Source of the DNA: a virus
Lineage: Duplodnaviria; Caudoviricetes
Strand: one strand, 5' to 3'
Virus record (IMG/VR): IMGVR_UViG_3300037067_015585
Coordinates: 170,377 to 234,376 of that record
Length of the DNA stretch: 64,000 nt
Shown: positions 8,574 through 64,000 of the stretch, piece after piece
How positions within the stretch are numbered: the stretch's first letter is position 1
Layout: every line of letters begins with the position of its first letter
Position numbers and translations under genes: made by a program
The notes under the pieces: generated by a model
What the model was told of the DNA's origin: nothing
Databases searched by the model: none
Seen by the model: the letters and a program-made list of their open reading frames with translations, nothing else

Positions 8574-9160
8574 GCATTTATCTGCCAATTCTCCCACACA
8601 AATTCGTAATCATACGTCAAGTGGTGTGTTTGCTGTAGAGAGGTTCTAATATTTTCACGCCTCTCTGCAGCATGATCCACAAACTGGTGAAACTGAATTT
8701 GTATGTCATCGATCATGCTTACGATCGATGAGTTCAGCATATGATCCAATAAATCATATTCGGCACCTTCAATATTAATCTTCATAAGACGTATGTGGGA
8801 TAATGAGTTGTCCCTAATCATATCGTCAATAGACACAATATTGACTTGCTCGACAGATTCAGAATGTTTTATTATACTAGATGCGCAGCCGTTCACAGAT
8901 ATATTACATGCTTCGTTAAACGGTCCAATTCCGACGTTAAAAACTAGTGCACCAGTATGAACTAATGCTTGTTTTGCGATTTTATAATATGCTTCTATTG
9001 GTTCAAATGCTAGTATTCTACAATGGTATCGATCATATATACTACGACTCCAAGACCCATAGTAGGCACCGCAATCGACAACAATATCTTGTTTATCGAT
9101 TTGATAATCTAATCTTAATGTCTCATCACCATGATCGGCAAACCAACGATCAAATTCCAT
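8570..9160 (-). CDS. FkbM-family methyltransferase
   Basis: VDCGAYYG, AFEP, KINIEGAE, IQFH; start taken at MEFD. Confidence 0.85.
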   Translation of the reverse strand: MEFDRWFADHGDETLRLDYQIDKQDIVVDCGAYYGSWSRSIYDRYHCRILAFEPIEAYYKIAKQALVHTGALVFNVGIGPFNEACNISVNGCASSIIKHSESVEQVNIVSIDDMIRDNSLSHIRLMKINIEGAEYDLLDHMLNSSIVSMIDDIQIQFHQFVDHAAERRENIRTSLQQTHHLTYDYEFVWENWQINA

Positions 9161-37891: not shown

Positions 37892-38473
37892 ATGATCAAA
37901 TCTGTCGAATTCAAAGTCGATTGGCGAACATTCAAGGCTGGCGATCGGTTTGAATTTACCCCTGGTATAAATCTTCTAGTGGGGGATCAGGGAGCCGGAA
38001 AGAGTTCTCTAATAACTCTGTTCAAATGGGCACTAAATGATAATAAGGAATTTGAAAGAATTGCCCATATATCGGTCGAAGGCAAGATACAGTTACGCCT
38101 ATTCGACTTTGAAGCAGATAATCCAAGAACAAGAAGCTATTGTCAGCACGCAGCGGATGTGTATATGAGATTCCAGGCCCACGGCAATTGCGTTCTGGCC
38201 ATACTTGACGTACTTGGCGAGGAAATAGATACGGTCAAAGCGTTTGTACTCGATGAACCAGATATGGCTCTGAGTATCAGATCGATAAATAAATTAGTAG
38301 GTATTTTAAAATCCACAAAGCATCAGGTCATATCATCAGCGCACAATCCACTATTAATCCAGTCGTTCGATAATGTTTTGTCGATAGAGCATAAAAAGTG
38401 GATGAAGTCGAAAGAATTTATTGAAAGTCAGATGACAGATGGCGAAGAAGCGCAAACCGACAGCAAAACCTAA
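37892..38473 (+). CDS. ABC/AAA-type ATPase
   Basis: GDQGAGKS Walker A, VLDEPD Walker B, SAHNP. Confidence 0.85.
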   Translation: MIKSVEFKVDWRTFKAGDRFEFTPGINLLVGDQGAGKSSLITLFKWALNDNKEFERIAHISVEGKIQLRLFDFEADNPRTRSYCQHAADVYMRFQAHGNCVLAILDVLGEEIDTVKAFVLDEPDMALSIRSINKLVGILKSTKHQVISSAHNPLLIQSFDNVLSIEHKKWMKSKEFIESQMTDGEEAQTDSKT

Positions 38474-38744
38474 ACTTTCTTCTGGCTCATTTAGTTCATT
38501 CAAACAAACATTCTCGTTCGATCTAGATTCCGTCGTGTTTATGTCTGTGTTGGGTTGGATGATAAGAAAGGAAATCGAGCAGACTTCTCTTGACATGTCG
38601 GAAAACAAGATGTGCGTTCCGAAAGATACAATTATTAAGGCGATTAAGAAGATCGGCCTTGGCAACTGGGTCAGCAAGGTAGAGAAATCTATTGCCGACT
38701 CTATAATCGAAGATGCTCGAGAAGAGCTTGCGAACAAAAAATGA
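38439..38744 (+). CDS. Hypothetical protein
   Basis: ORF directly upstream of array 1. Confidence 0.5.
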   Translation: MAKKRKPTAKPKLSSGSFSSFKQTFSFDLDSVVFMSVLGWMIRKEIEQTSLDMSENKMCVPKDTIIKAIKKIGLGNWVSKVEKSIADSIIEDAREELANKK

Positions 38745-38755
38745 ATTAATATAAT

Positions 38756-39190
38756 GGTGTGGCCTGGTGAGGTCCGGCTAGGCATGGCGGGGTTTGGTGG
38801 GGTAGGGTACGGTCAGGTCTGGGTGCCAATGGCACATTTACAAATCAAGAGCAATGTGGTGAGGTGAGGTGAGGTATGGTGTGGCGCGGTGCGGTGTGGC
38901 CTGGTGCGGTCGGGCCTGGCGAGGTGCGGTAAGGTTTGGGTGCCAATGGCACATTTACAAATCAATACTAGTGATATGGCTAGGCGAGGCGCGGTCTGGT
39001 AAGGTAAGGTCTGGTGCGGTGCGGTGTGGCGTGGTAAGGTTTGGGTGCCAATGGCACATTTATAAATCAAGAGTGATGGCCGGGCGAGGTGCGGTGTGGT
39101 TTGGTCGGGTCAGGTCTGGTGTCGTGCGGTTTGGTGTGGTAAGGTAAGGTGTGGTAAGGTTTGGGTGCCAATGGCACATTTACAAATCAA
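38756..39190 (+). repeat. GGY-NN array 1: four (GGYNN)13-17 tracts, each ending in a 29-nt palindromic repeat; putative guide-RNA array
   Basis: TGGGTGCCAATGGCACATTTAYAAATCAA at 38820, 38937, 39042 and 39162; strict 5-nt GGY periodicity in the tracts. Confidence 0.9.
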
Positions 39191-60176: not shown

Positions 60177-60557
60177 ATGGAAGAAGAAATATATACCTAT
60201 TTTATATGCGATAGATGTAGATCGTTTTCGGACCACCAAAAGGTTTGGTGTCCGTCTTGTGGCCAGAAACTACGCTACGAGAAAGACAGGAGAAGCGAAC
60301 TAGAAGCAAAGGGGTTTGAAAGCACATACGATCTTGCTTTTTATAAGCGTGAGGGTGGTAGATTTGAGGCGTTTATAAGAACTCCCAAGACATTCATTGG
60401 GGCTATCAACACGGAAGCTGAATGTACTCTACATATCATAGTCCGGGCGTCACGGAAGAGTGAAGCCATAGAAAAGGCCAGTAAATATGGTAGAATAAAC
60501 AACATCCATGCCCTACGCATTGATGATAATGGTAGGGGCGGACCTGAACTAACTTAA
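60177..60557 (+). CDS. Zn-ribbon hypothetical protein
   Basis: CDRC...CPSCG. Confidence 0.55.
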   Translation: MEEEIYTYFICDRCRSFSDHQKVWCPSCGQKLRYEKDRRSELEAKGFESTYDLAFYKREGGRFEAFIRTPKTFIGAINTEAECTLHIIVRASRKSEAIEKASKYGRINNIHALRIDDNGRGGPELT

Positions 60558-61945
60558 TTGTTGTTCGATTCCATCATCGCAACAAACTTCAAGAAATTCT
60601 CGGACCAACCAGAAATTTCAGCTGTCCAGATTCCCTGATAATTGACGCCATGTGATTCAGATGAGACGTCGATAATGTAGTTTCTTTGGCCGTGCGGTCT
60701 CGGCTGTCCTCTTCCAGGTAAATCACAATCTTGTGAATCACTGAAAATAAGCAACCGATCCGGCGATTCAATCTTATCGCGAATATAGTCACACACCTGA
60801 CGTGTAAAAATTCCACCGCCACCCATATTATCATATGCATCCGTGATATGATCGGCGAGCGAGAATCCACGTGTTGCTTCAACTTTTCTTGTGGCGTGCT
60901 TTCGTTGGTGATCGCTACCAGCAGTCACATAAACAGAAACGTGATCGCAGCACTCTGCCGCAAGCACGGCCATTGAAGCCGCCGCATCAATTCGAGTGAA
61001 CTCTGATTTGCTCGACAGATTGCTGTGCATCGATCCAGACACATCGATAACTAGTGTCGTGAATCCGGCAAGTCTCGGCCATGATTTCGCACACCGATAC
61101 ATCAAATCCTCGATTTCACGTGTCCAATCAGGAGCATATTTGCGAGCTTTAAGAAAATCGATCGGTAATAACATATCTGATTTGCACGTGTCGAATGCTT
61201 TCGCCATCGACGAACGTGAAATCTTTACTTCCTGCATATTTCGCAGATTTTTCAAAAATACGTATGCTGGCAGTTTACCTTCATCAATCAATCGCTCCCA
61301 TACTCCACGCTTTTCATCGGTGTTCTTCGCCGCCGACATACCGACTTCCCAAGTATCAGGAGTAGCCAATTCATTGTACAACAGTTTCTTATATAATGAA
61401 TTGCGATCGCCTGCCGGTTTCGCATGTACGAGACGCATAGCATCACGAAGCTTGATGTCTTTATCCATCTGCTTGTATTTAGCAAGCTGATACTCATCAA
61501 ACTTATCGAACGCAGCCGCCAAACCTCTCTTTACGGCTGCTGGCAATGATTTCTTTTTATCATTGTCGGACCAATAAAGAGATATAAATTCAGTTATCTC
61601 ATCTGGACGCTTACAGATCTTGGTCAGCGTCTCAGCGACACCGGGCATGTGATTGCGAGCCATTTCACGAACGATCAACAGCGGAACATGCCGTAGTTTC
61701 TGATCGTATCTGGCCTCAATAGCAATATCGGCAACATTCGGAACCAACGGCACCAAACTCTTGATCTTATTGACGACTTCTTGGCCATCGCAATATGCGT
61801 TTTTCTCCCACAAGAGGCAAGACATAACAAGGCGACGAAGAGTAGCCTCGTCTCCCTGTTTGGCTGCTCTCGGGCCATATCCACCAGCAAGGTGCTTGTC
61901 AGCGTAAACGTGTGATTTCTTAGTCTTTTTGTTTGTCGTCGCCAT
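60554..61945 (-). CDS. Ro60/Rsr TROVE-domain RNA-binding protein
   Basis: SCLLWE, LRHVP, FDEYQLAKY, TPDTWE, KNLRN, vWA DVSGSM, SDSQ, GWSE. Confidence 0.92.
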   Translation of the reverse strand: MATTNKKTKKSHVYADKHLAGGYGPRAAKQGDEATLRRLVMSCLLWEKNAYCDGQEVVNKIKSLVPLVPNVADIAIEARYDQKLRHVPLLIVREMARNHMPGVAETLTKICKRPDEITEFISLYWSDNDKKKSLPAAVKRGLAAAFDKFDEYQLAKYKQMDKDIKLRDAMRLVHAKPAGDRNSLYKKLLYNELATPDTWEVGMSAAKNTDEKRGVWERLIDEGKLPAYVFLKNLRNMQEVKISRSSMAKAFDTCKSDMLLPIDFLKARKYAPDWTREIEDLMYRCAKSWPRLAGFTTLVIDVSGSMHSNLSSKSEFTRIDAAASMAVLAAECCDHVSVYVTAGSDHQRKHATRKVEATRGFSLADHITDAYDNMGGGGIFTRQVCDYIRDKIESPDRLLIFSDSQDCDLPGRGQPRPHGQRNYIIDVSSESHGVNYQGIWTAEISGWSENFLKFVAMMESNNN

Positions 61946-62243
61946 AATCGTCACCCAGCAGTTTCTTATCAAACCAAACTGGCCAATTAGTTTTTAGGAG
62001 ATCCTCTTTGATCTCCTCGGTTACTAAAATGTCTTGAAATTTTACTAGCGGATTAACGTGATAAAATAAATCACGCATCAGAGAACAAACACCAGTTGCT
62101 CTATATCTCCATCCAATTATTTCTTCTGGCATACCCTCTCTAGTCAGTGAACATGCTATACACAGAGCGATCTCTTCAAGGAAGTAATTCCTTAGTTTCT
62201 CACTGTCCGCTAAGAATTCTCTGGATTTCATAATTGCAACCAT
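61920..62243 (-). CDS. Hypothetical protein between the Y RNAs and Ro60
   Basis: ORF overlapping the Ro60 start. Confidence 0.5.
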   Translation of the reverse strand: MVAIMKSREFLADSEKLRNYFLEEIALCIACSLTREGMPEEIIGWRYRATGVCSLMRDLFYHVNPLVKFQDILVTEEIKEDLLKTNWPVWFDKKLLGDDYGDDKQKD

Positions 62244-63006: not shown

Positions 63007-63522
63007 TTACATAATGATCGGTGGACGTTGTATAACATCTGTCCTTGAACTGTGTTCTGTCGTACGCATCTGCCGATCTAGTTCAGTCATATTCGCGTGC
63101 AACATCTCCATTTGTGCAGCCATGAATTTGCCCTCGCGATCGTTGACCTTCGCCGACTTATCGTTACTGAGGCACATCAATGATTGGAGGTTGGCTTTAT
63201 GTTGGTGCTTTGCACGTTTTATACGCTTCTTCGATACCAGATAGATCTGTTCGTGCTCGGTCATCATCCTAAGACCAACGTCGCGATATGACCAAAGTTG
63301 AATACCACGTTCGTCTTGCATTCTCTGGACAAACCGCTTCATGATATAGCCACCATTTGCAGTATTGTTCTGGTAGGCTAATTCCGTGCGGCTAAATCCG
63401 CTCACACTCTCCAATTCTTCCCACGTCAGAATATCGCCACGGCATTTCGGCACAGCGAATTGCATAAGTCGATCGACTGCTGCTTGTGATGCTGGGTTAA
63501 ATTCAAATGCTCGTCTAATCAT
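63007..63522 (-). CDS. Hypothetical protein directly downstream of GGY-NN array 2 (candidate accessory factor)
   Basis: GAGGA RBS; winged-helix-like pattern GDILTWEELE...GIQLWSYRDVGLRM followed by a helical tail. Confidence 0.6.
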   Translation of the reverse strand: MIRRAFEFNPASQAAVDRLMQFAVPKCRGDILTWEELESVSGFSRTELAYQNNTANGGYIMKRFVQRMQDERGIQLWSYRDVGLRMMTEHEQIYLVSKKRIKRAKHQHKANLQSLMCLSNDKSAKVNDREGKFMAAQMEMLHANMTELDRQMRTTEHSSRTDVIQRPPIIM

Positions 63523-63575: not shown

Positions 63576-64000
63576 GTGATTTGTAAATGTGCCATTGGCA
63601 CCCAGACCATACCAGACCCAGCCAAACCAGACCTCGCCACACCCGACCTCACCTCACCGGGCCGTACCATGCCTTATTCGTCTTGATTTATAAATGTACC
63701 ATTGGTACCCAAACCCGACCCCACCAAACCCGGCCCAACCACACCCTACCACACCTGACCTGACCGTACCGAGCCACTTCTTGATTTGTAAATGTGCCAT
63801 TGGCACCCAGACCAGACCAAGCCGCGCCACACCTTACCGTACCCGACCCCACCGTGCCATACCGCACCGCACCAGATCTATTGGCTTGTAAATGTGCCAT
63901 TGGCACCCAGACCTCACCCCGCCAGACCCCGCCGCACCATACCTCGCCGCACCTCGCCGCACCTCGCCGCACCACGCCCCATCGCTCTTGATTTATAAAT
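63576..64000 (-). repeat. GGY-NN array 2 (truncated by window end)
   Basis: Reverse complement of the same 29-nt repeat at 63576, 63683, 63781, 63881 and 63988 (partial); RCC-NN periodic tracts on the + strand. Confidence 0.9.

What the first reader, a model, noticed from the sequence alone, without database searches (positions are those of the whole stretch)
38756..39161. NN dinucleotides of array 1 decode as codon positions 1-2 of plausible proteins, including a DNA methyltransferase motif I
Reading each NN as NNx. Unit 1: GT CT GA CC TA AT GG TT GG AG AC CA = V L [DE] P Y [MI] G [FL] G [SR] T [HQ], closely resembling the VLDPFxGxGST SAM-binding motif of DNA MTases. Unit 2: [DE][DE][DE][IM]VAAVLARL[DE]A[KN]. 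Unit 3: Y[DE]AL[KN][KN]LAAVV[KN]. Unit 4: R[DE]AV[FL]R[HQ]LVA[FL]V[KN][KN]V[KN]. Units 2-4 look like amphipathic helices. Inference: the guides recognise gapped targets that skip every third (wobble) base, so synonymous mutations would not allow escape.
Basis: partly seen in the sequence, partly recalled or inferred. Interest (0 to 1): 0.95.

Follow-up and report, generated by a model that had tools for sequence, protein, structure and literature searches.

The report
Jumbo-phage VIPR guide-RNA arrays

Summary
Array 1 (38756-39190, +) holds four units. Array 2 (63576-64000, -) holds four more plus a fifth cut by the contig end. Each unit has 13-17 strictly phased GGYNN pentamers and a conserved tail with a covarying 5-bp hairpin.

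This is the architecture of VIPR vrRNAs (bioRxiv 10.64898/2026.04.26.720920, .720927 and 10.64898/2026.10.15.759431). In those systems a Cas7-like Vipr filament hides each GGY. The NN pairs bind dsDNA while skipping one base, usually the wobble base.

The window carries no vipr gene, because the 234-kb jumbo-phage contig ends inside array 2. A 388-kb relative and a 2.3-kb metagenome contig both show the order vipr, array, then a homologue of the window's 171-aa gene.

NN composition fits sense codon positions 1-2. Unit 1 fits DNA-methyltransferase motif I; none of 2,000,000 random guides did.

This scan has already found VIPR loci in at least seven other genomes. Verdict: new member of a known kind, of modest interest.

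The parts
38728..38755 (+). Sigma-70-like promoter match (TTGCGA, 16-nt spacer, TATAAT) ending 1 nt before the first pentamer of array 1
   Evidence: This is a consensus match only: 2 sites were found against 1.4 expected in shuffles.
38756..38848 (+). vrRNA unit A1u1: 13 GGYNN pentamers (38756-38820) plus tail. The NN decode as VL[DE]PY[IM]G[FL]G[RS]T[HQ], which resembles methyltransferase motif I.
38858..38965 (+). vrRNA unit A1u2: 16 pentamers (38858-38937) plus tail
38978..39070 (+). vrRNA unit A1u3: 13 pentamers (38978-39042) plus tail
39078..39190 (+). vrRNA unit A1u4: 17 pentamers (39078-39162, with CGTGC at 39123 breaking GG) plus tail. The glycosyltransferase gene starts 13 nt downstream.
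63985..64000 (-). 3' part of the tail of a further array-2 unit, cut by the end of the contig
63881..63978 (-). vrRNA unit A2u1: 14 pentamers (63978-63909) plus tail
63781..63873 (-). vrRNA unit A2u2: 13 pentamers (63873-63809) plus tail
63683..63775 (-). vrRNA unit A2u3: 13 pentamers (63775-63711) plus tail. Its hairpin carries a compensatory G-C to A-U change (GTACC/GGTAC).
63576..63673 (-). vrRNA unit A2u4: 14 pentamers (63673-63604) plus tail. It is the last unit before the 171-aa gene.
63007..63522 (-). 171-aa gene (P0001) directly downstream of array 2: candidate Vipr-accessory protein (vap). Its homologues hold the same position after vipr-linked arrays in two relatives.
   Evidence: The fold is unresolved apart from a C-terminal helical hairpin.

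Best explanation
**What it is.** Both arrays encode VIPR guide RNAs (vrRNAs) of about 100 nt each.

**How it works (taken from the published SUSP1 work).**
- One Vipr protomer (a small Cas7-like RAMP) binds each pentamer.
- The protomers form a helical filament that sequesters G1, G2 and Y3 and presents N4 and N5.
- The 12-16 NN pairs base-pair with one strand of double-stranded DNA while one target base per step is flipped out.
- The recognised site therefore reads NNxNNx..., with x usually the codon wobble base.
- Binding forms an R-loop triplex and blocks transcription of a gene of a rival phage or satellite.

**Inferred for this phage.**
- The tail hairpin caps each guide.
- The identical tails of array 1 and array 2 mean one Vipr loads both arrays.
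- The vipr gene lies just beyond the contig end, upstream of array 2.
- The 171-aa gene after array 2 is the accessory gene.

**Shown here.**
- The RNA architecture and the tail covariation.
- The order vipr, array, vap in two relatives.
- G001's Vipr has a RAMP fold and conserved GGY-contact residues, in a family that includes L088's partial Vipr.
For: **RNA architecture.**
- The pentamer architecture is within or just above the published 9-16 repeats.
- The guide tract is not more structured than shuffles, z = +0.9 to +1.1.
- The tail hairpin is paired in 100% of cells across 13 distinct rows, and 2 of 5 pairs carry compensatory changes.

**Link to a vipr gene in relatives.**
- The tail motif was found in only one other viral contig, a 388-kb phage (G001) rated 99% complete.
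- There the ORF just upstream of the array (P0005) hits PDB 36pp 'SUSP1 Vipr protein' at E = 3.3e-6.
- Its AlphaFold2 model has pLDDT 91, and its top Foldseek hits are CRISPR RAMPs (Csm and type VII Cas7 complex chains; best E = 5e-5).
- SUSP1 residues H17, K33, R138, D177, W178 and R179 align with P0005 H23, K38, R164, D203, W204 and R205. All but K38 are invariant in 35 homologues.
- L088 shows the vipr 3' end, then 2 units, then a gene 72% identical to P0001.
- L081 shows GGYNN units on both sides of a 53%-identical vipr.

**Self-targeting.** No site in the phage's own contig reaches 80% NN identity; the best is 71%. The papers report the same.
Against: - No vipr homologue exists on the 234-kb contig. 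The effector is inferred from relatives.
- No natural target was found for any of the 8 guides.
- No RNA data are available.
- Vap candidate P0001 has no detectable similarity to the gene next to vipr (tootiki_15) in Escherichia phage tootiki (Felixounavirus).
- The tail differs from the tail in phage tootiki, and SUSP1-clade tails are described as pseudoknots.
Confidence: 0.85

Rival explanations
1. The phage is vipr-null, and the arrays are solo (orphan) vrRNAs. They would hijack or redirect the Vipr protein of a co-infecting rival, as described for satellites and SUSP1-like phages.
For: - No vipr is on the contig.
- Array 1 lies 24 kb from array 2 and is flanked by unrelated genes.
- Solo vrRNAs are documented.
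- One metagenome protein fuses a Vipr N-terminus to a vap-like body, which hints at vipr-array deletions in this clade.
Against: - The contig is only 64% complete and ends inside array 2.
- In both relatives with this tail, vipr sits exactly where the contig stops.
- None of the guides matches relatives' vipr genes or arrays.
Confidence: 0.1
2. The tracts are protein-sponge or scaffold RNAs, like the TRAP-binding (G/U)AG repeats or CsrB. Only the GGY triplets at 5-nt spacing would matter, and the NN would carry no information.
For: The 5-nt period with a fixed triplet and a 2-nt spacer resembles TRAP sites (my own knowledge). No target was found.
Against: - The NN composition is non-random and codon-like.
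- Unit 1 matches a methyltransferase motif.
- Every unit is unique.
- The linked protein is a Vipr/RAMP with demonstrated NN-programmed targeting in homologous systems.
Confidence: 0.03
3. The region is protein-coding or low-complexity repeat DNA, or an assembly artefact.
For: ORFs of 85-103 aa overlap the arrays.
Against: - A period of 5 is incompatible with coding.
- The same architecture recurs in independent samples.
- Three runs from three separate studies hold the stretch or part of it.
Confidence: 0.01

Closest known systems
VIPR systems, type II of Escherichia phage SUSP1 and the Pseudomonas fulva prophage (bioRxiv 10.64898/2026.04.26.720920 and 10.64898/2026.04.26.720927; PDB 36pp)
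   Same: - vrRNAs are GGY/NN pentamer tracts followed by a structured 3' tail.
- The locus is phage-borne, with the order vipr, array, small accessory gene (seen in relatives).
- The Vipr homologue keeps the GGY-contact residues.
- There is no self-targeting.
   Different: - Vipr is only about 21% identical.
- The tail is a simple GUGCC-AAU-GGCAC hairpin plus AUUUACAAAUCAAGAG; the SUSP1 clade is described with a pseudoknot tail.
- The accessory protein is unrelated in sequence.
- The host is a jumbo phage from groundwater and landfill samples.
- A second array lies 24 kb from the main one.
- The VIPR type could not be assigned, because the papers' tables are not held.
Solo or orphan vrRNAs of satellites and vipr-null phages (bioRxiv 10.64898/2026.10.15.759431)
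   Same: Array 1 stands apart from any vipr gene, and the contig itself carries no vipr.
   Different: - Array 1 has four units with the same tail as the main locus of the same genome. The published solo loci hold 1-2 vrRNAs that replace a deleted vipr-vap1.
- No match was found to relatives' vipr genes or vrRNAs.
Class 1 CRISPR-Cas crRNA on a Cas7 backbone
   Same: A RAMP filament sits on a guide RNA, bases are flipped periodically by a thumb, and units form an array with a conserved handle.
   Different: - There are no CRISPR repeats or spacers, and no cas1, cas2 or other cas genes.
- Three of every five guide bases are hidden, and the target is read with a 1-nt gap.
- In CRISPR every sixth base is flipped on both strands.
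TRAP-binding RNA: (G/U)AG triplets with 2-3 nt spacers
   Same: A fixed triplet recurs with a period of about 5 nt and is bound by an oligomeric protein.
   Different: It has no guide function, no RAMP protein and no array of unique units with tails. This comparison comes from my own knowledge and was not tested.

Membership tests
VIPR system | vrRNA made of tandem GGYNN (YNNGG) repeats, 9-16 per guide, with invariant GGY and hypervariable NN | tested here: met
   - There are 8 complete units of 13-17 pentamers.
- G is present in 104 of 105 and 105 of 105 pentamers at positions 1 and 2, and Y in 105 of 105 at position 3.
- All 16 NN dinucleotides are used.
VIPR system | Invariable, structured 3' tail after the repeat tract | tested here: met
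   - A 28-nt tail is conserved in all 8 units.
- Its 5-bp hairpin is 100% paired, with compensatory changes in 2 of 5 pairs across the window, G001, L081 and L088.
- A SUSP1-type pseudoknot was not looked for.
VIPR system | A vipr gene (single-RRM RAMP with G-loop and thumb) in the locus | tested here: inconclusive
   - The gene is absent from the contig, which ends inside array 2 and is 64% complete.
- It is present directly upstream of the same-tailed array in G001 (P0005) and in L088.
VIPR system | Vipr residues that read G1, G2 and Y3 (SUSP1 H17, R138, D177, W178, R179) | tested here: met
   - They align with H23, R164, D203, W204 and R205 of the relative's Vipr.
- All five are invariant in 35 homologues.
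- This was tested on the relative's protein, not on a protein of the window.
VIPR system | Small accessory (vap) gene next to vipr and the arrays | tested here: inconclusive
   - P0001 homologues follow the array in G001 (41% identity) and in L088 (72% identity).
- No Pfam or PHROG family matches.
- No convincing fold match was found.
- There is no similarity to the gene next to vipr (tootiki_15) in phage tootiki.
VIPR system | Natural targets that match the NN string with a 1-nt skip (at least 80% NN identity), mostly in codon phase | tested here: inconclusive
   - Exact 9-12-NN patterns for all 8 guides gave no full-length target.
- The best hits, 27 of 30 (L066) and 21 of 24 (L082), have flanks at chance level.
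- Only exact-pattern scans were possible on the large collections.
VIPR system | No self-targeting at 80% NN identity or more | tested here: met
   The best 1-nt-skip match of any guide on its own contig is 71%, equal to the shuffled controls.
VIPR system | Expression as roughly 100-nt RNAs bound by Vipr | not testable with these tools
   No RNA run holds the stretch.
CRISPR-Cas | Direct repeats of 23-50 nt separated by unique contiguous spacers, with cas genes nearby | tested here: not met
   - The variable part is itself a 5-nt-periodic tract.
- The Pfam scan of 14 window ORFs flanking the two arrays matched no Cas family.
- Rfam found only 4 tRNAs.

The most novel reading that the evidence does not exclude
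Guide A1u1 may be aimed at the SAM-binding motif I (hLDP[FY]xGxG[ST]T) of beta-class N4/N6 DNA methyltransferase genes of rivals. That would mean VIPR guides can be set on conserved catalytic motifs, where both synonymous and most non-synonymous escape is blocked. In addition, jumbo phages may keep dispersed guide arrays tens to hundreds of kb from vipr, all served by one Vipr through a shared tail.
Probability: 0.3. Interest if true: 0.45.

Novelty: new member of a known kind. Interest (0 to 1): 0.3.

Why it matters
- It extends VIPR to uncultivated jumbo phages of groundwater and landfill (234 kb or more; the relative is 388 kb).
- This Vipr clade is large: 888 proteins matched at E <= 0.001, none carries a Pfam family, and the sources that name them say only 'hypothetical protein'.
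- The clade has its own tail and accessory protein, and the genomes carry a second array far from vipr.
- It shows that the gapped, wobble-skipping code can be read from raw sequence alone.
- The methyltransferase-motif guide is a concrete lead on what such phages fight over.
- The mechanism itself is already published, so the gain is annotation and breadth, not a new principle.

Tried and rejected
**Searches that found nothing useful.**
- Rfam at gathering thresholds gave only 4 tRNAs.
- Pfam found nothing for P0001, P0002 or P0005. PHROGs gave only phrog_4652, of unknown function, for P0005.
- No RNA holder is listed among the sequencing runs.

**Local target scans.**
- All guides were scanned at gaps of 0-3 against the phage's own contig and the 388-kb relative. 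Nothing rose above the shuffled-NN controls.
- Scans against relatives' vipr genes and arrays, and against 128 Vipr, vap and other proteins at amino-acid level, also found nothing.

**Exact-pattern scans of the large collections.**
- Viral contigs: A1u1, A1u2 and A2u4 at 12 NN gave 0 hits.
- Viral contigs: 9-NN cores gave 1, 0, 0 and 3 hits for A1u3, A1u4, A2u2 and A2u3. Flanks matched at chance level or the frame contained stops.
- Metagenomes: the A1u1 10-NN core gave 0 hits.
- Metagenomes: the A1u2 10-NN core gave 41 in-frame hits. About half share a conserved C-terminal motif (CDRIVAAVLARL) with two hit proteins that Pfam identifies as ECF sigma factors, on high-GC (60-75% G+C) contigs. 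This is a shared conserved motif, not the target.
- Genomes: the A2u4 10-NN core gave 7 in-frame chance hits.

**Other attempts.**
- The look-up of encoding contigs found no record for P0007, P0127 or P0129.
- The best guide-to-guide similarity between the two phages is 14 of 18, which is not significant after 136 comparisons.
- The VIPR type could not be assigned, because no supplementary tables are held.
- My first idea, a TRAP-like sponge RNA, was dropped once the VIPR papers and the Vipr homologue turned up.

Full report
**Where the window lies.** The window is the last 64 kb of a 234,376-bp IMG/VR virus contig that CheckV rates 64% complete. Three sequencing runs hold the stretch or part of it, from groundwater and landfill metagenomes. 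None is an RNA run.

**The observation.** From 38756 the plus strand reads as strictly phased pentamers GG-Y-N-N.
- Array 1 has four tracts of 13, 16, 13 and 17 pentamers.
- Each tract is followed by the same tail, GGGTGCCAATGGCAC ATTTACAAATCAA.
- Array 2 lies on the minus strand at 63576-64000. It has four units of 14, 13, 13 and 14 pentamers and the tail fragment of a fifth unit cut by the contig end.
- Over 105 informative pentamers, position 1 is G in 104, position 2 is G in all, and position 3 is T (76) or C (29). Positions 4-5 use all 16 dinucleotides.
- Runs of 5 or more GGYNN occur nowhere else in the contig and never in shuffles.
- The tail motif occurs 8 times, against 0 expected.
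- The last pentamer of every unit is GGTCT or GGTTT, so it probably belongs to the handle.

**What it is.** A full-text search found three 2026 preprints on VIPR systems.
- vrRNAs are 9-16 YNNGG repeats followed by a structured tail.
- One Vipr protomer, a minimal Cas7-like RAMP, binds each repeat, hides GGY and presents NN.
- The NN pairs bind double-stranded DNA with one skipped base per step. That base usually falls on the codon wobble position.
- Binding silences genes of rival phages and satellites.

The arrays here have that architecture.
- The guide tracts fold no better than shuffles, z about +1, as expected for a protein-bound single strand.
- The tail hairpin GUGCC-AAU-GGCAC is paired in all 13 distinct sequences compared.
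- Two of its five pairs carry compensatory changes: G-C to A-U in window unit A2u3 and in L088, and U-A to C-G in L081.

**The protein partner.** No vipr homologue is on the contig. The evidence comes from three other contigs.
- *G001.* The tail motif occurs in only one other viral contig, a 388-kb phage rated 99% complete, with 9 units at 9.0-10.0 kb and at least 2 more at 218 kb.
  - The ORF directly upstream of its main array (P0005, 226 aa) matches PDB 36pp 'SUSP1 Vipr protein' at E = 3.3e-6, collinear over both halves.
  - It is 21% identical to the Vipr of Escherichia phage tootiki (Felixounavirus), E = 2e-11.
  - Its AlphaFold2 model has pLDDT 91 and pTM 0.87, and its top Foldseek hits are CRISPR RAMPs (Csm, Cmr and type VII Cas7 complexes), best E = 5e-5.
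  - The SUSP1 residues that read the repeat (H17, R138, D177, W178, R179) and K33, which contacts the backbone next to the skipped base, align with H23, R164, D203, W204, R205 and K38. All but K38 are invariant in 35 homologues.
  - The gene just downstream of the G001 array is 41% identical to the window's 171-aa gene P0001, which directly follows array 2.
- *L088.* This 2.3-kb metagenome contig shows the whole order at closer range: the vipr 3' end, two units with this tail, then a gene 72% identical to P0001.
- *L081.* This independent contig has GGYNN units on both sides of a 53%-identical vipr.

From these I infer that array 2 and P0001 are the 3' part of a vipr-array-vap locus and that vipr lies just beyond base 64000. 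Array 1, 24 kb away between an ABC-type ATPase-like gene and a glycosyltransferase, has the same tail and would be served by the same Vipr. P0001 has no family and no convincing fold match, apart from a C-terminal helical hairpin. It is also unrelated in sequence to the gene next to vipr (tootiki_15) in phage tootiki. The P0005 family has 888 members at E <= 0.001 in the metagenome protein collection. None of those listed has a Pfam family, and the sources that name them say only 'hypothetical protein'.

- The 105 NN fit a sense codon-position-1-2 model 14.7 bits better than bulk composition. No simulation out of 200,000 reached that value.
- They fit it at least 16 bits better than any other phase or strand, and 7 of 8 units agree.
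- The effect is accounted for by base frequencies at the two positions, chiefly 48% G at N4. The relative's guides do not show it.
- It therefore fits sense-strand coding targets rich in GNN codons but does not prove them.
- Stop-compatible TA and TG are depleted (4 of 105, P = 0.001).
- Unit A1u1 alone meets [VIL][VIL]DP[FY]xGxG[ST]T, the motif I pattern of N6_N4 methyltransferases.
  - None of 2,000,000 random guides from the same NN pool met it.
  - The relative's own PF01555 enzyme reads ILDPFGGTATT and is not matched by the guide.
  - The motif was chosen after seeing the data, so I treat it as a good lead, not a result.

- No guide matches the phage's own contig or the relative above shuffled controls at any gap from 0 to 3. 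The best self match is 71%, in line with the papers' finding of no self-targeting.
- No guide matches relatives' vipr genes or arrays, a target class reported for solo vrRNAs.
- On the large collections only exact patterns can be searched.
  - Three 12-NN patterns found nothing in viral contigs.
  - Four 9-NN cores gave four hits in all, with chance-level flanks or stops.
  - The methyltransferase-like 10-NN core found nothing in 241 million metagenome records.
  - The A1u2 core found 41 in-frame hits. About half share the C-terminal motif CDRIVAAVLARL[DE] with two hits that Pfam identifies as ECF sigma factors, on high-GC contigs; the best overall match is 27 of 30.
  - The A2u4 core found 7 in-frame hits with failing flanks.
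- None of these is a credible natural target.

**Rival explanations.**
- *Solo vrRNAs in a vipr-null phage* cannot be excluded until the sequence beyond the contig end is seen. One metagenome protein fuses the first 43 residues of a Vipr to a vap-like body. Synteny in two relatives argues against this rival.
- *A TRAP-like sponge RNA*, my first guess, is made unlikely by the Vipr link and the non-random NN.
- *Coding sequence or an artefact* is excluded by the 5-nt period and by recurrence in independent samples.

**Verdict.** This is a new member of a known kind. This scan has already reported VIPR loci in at least seven other genomes, including one where guides appeared aimed at methyltransferase motifs. 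Three things are mildly new here: the jumbo-phage setting, a distinct tail and accessory protein, and a second array far from the main locus.

Noticed in passing
window 60554-61972 (-): A 472-aa protein with a TROVE (Ro60) domain (E = 8e-17) and a vWA domain lies 1 kb downstream of the candidate vap gene. Another first-reader note reports Y-RNA-like elements beside it.
   Followed up: partly
protein P0128 (JGI, 1,012-bp contig; not in the window): A chimeric protein: residues 1-43 are 81% identical to a Vipr N-terminus (P0007), and the rest is 71% identical to P0001. It is either a natural deletion of the vipr body plus the array, or an assembly collapse.
   Followed up: partly
G001 (L011 8988-10004; L021, at G001 217938-218226): The relative's guides are much more degenerate, with several pentamers lacking GG and with some indels. 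Their NN composition is not codon-position-1-2-like, unlike the window's guides.
   Followed up: partly
L031-L071 (metagenome hits of the A1u2 core): About half of the 41 hits share a conserved C-terminal motif, CDRIVAAVLARL[DE], with two hit proteins that Pfam identifies as ECF sigma factors, on high-GC (60-75% G+C) metagenome contigs. The flanks do not match the guide.
   Followed up: yes
L079 (NCBI MAG contig JAWVGW010000237.1): A Vipr homologue (49% identity to P0005, 256 aa) has no strict GGYNN run of 5 or more within 5 kb on either side. It may use one of the alternative repeat consensuses mentioned in the paper.
   Followed up: no
window 37892-38473 (+): A short (193 aa) ABC/SMC-type ATPase-like protein (AAA_21, AAA_23) lies upstream of array 1, separated from it by a 101-aa ORF that it overlaps. 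It is not conserved next to the relative's arrays.
   Followed up: no
window A2u3 (63775-63711, -) versus G001 unit at 9100: The two guides share 14 of 18 NN bases at one offset (AC-xA-CA-GT-AG-GT). This could mean a common target, but it is not significant after 136 comparisons.
   Followed up: yes
L010 2092-2616 (-) in G001: A 174-aa ORF with CxxC...HH...CxxCH spacing, HNH-like by eye with no Pfam hit, sits next to the relative's second array.
   Followed up: no
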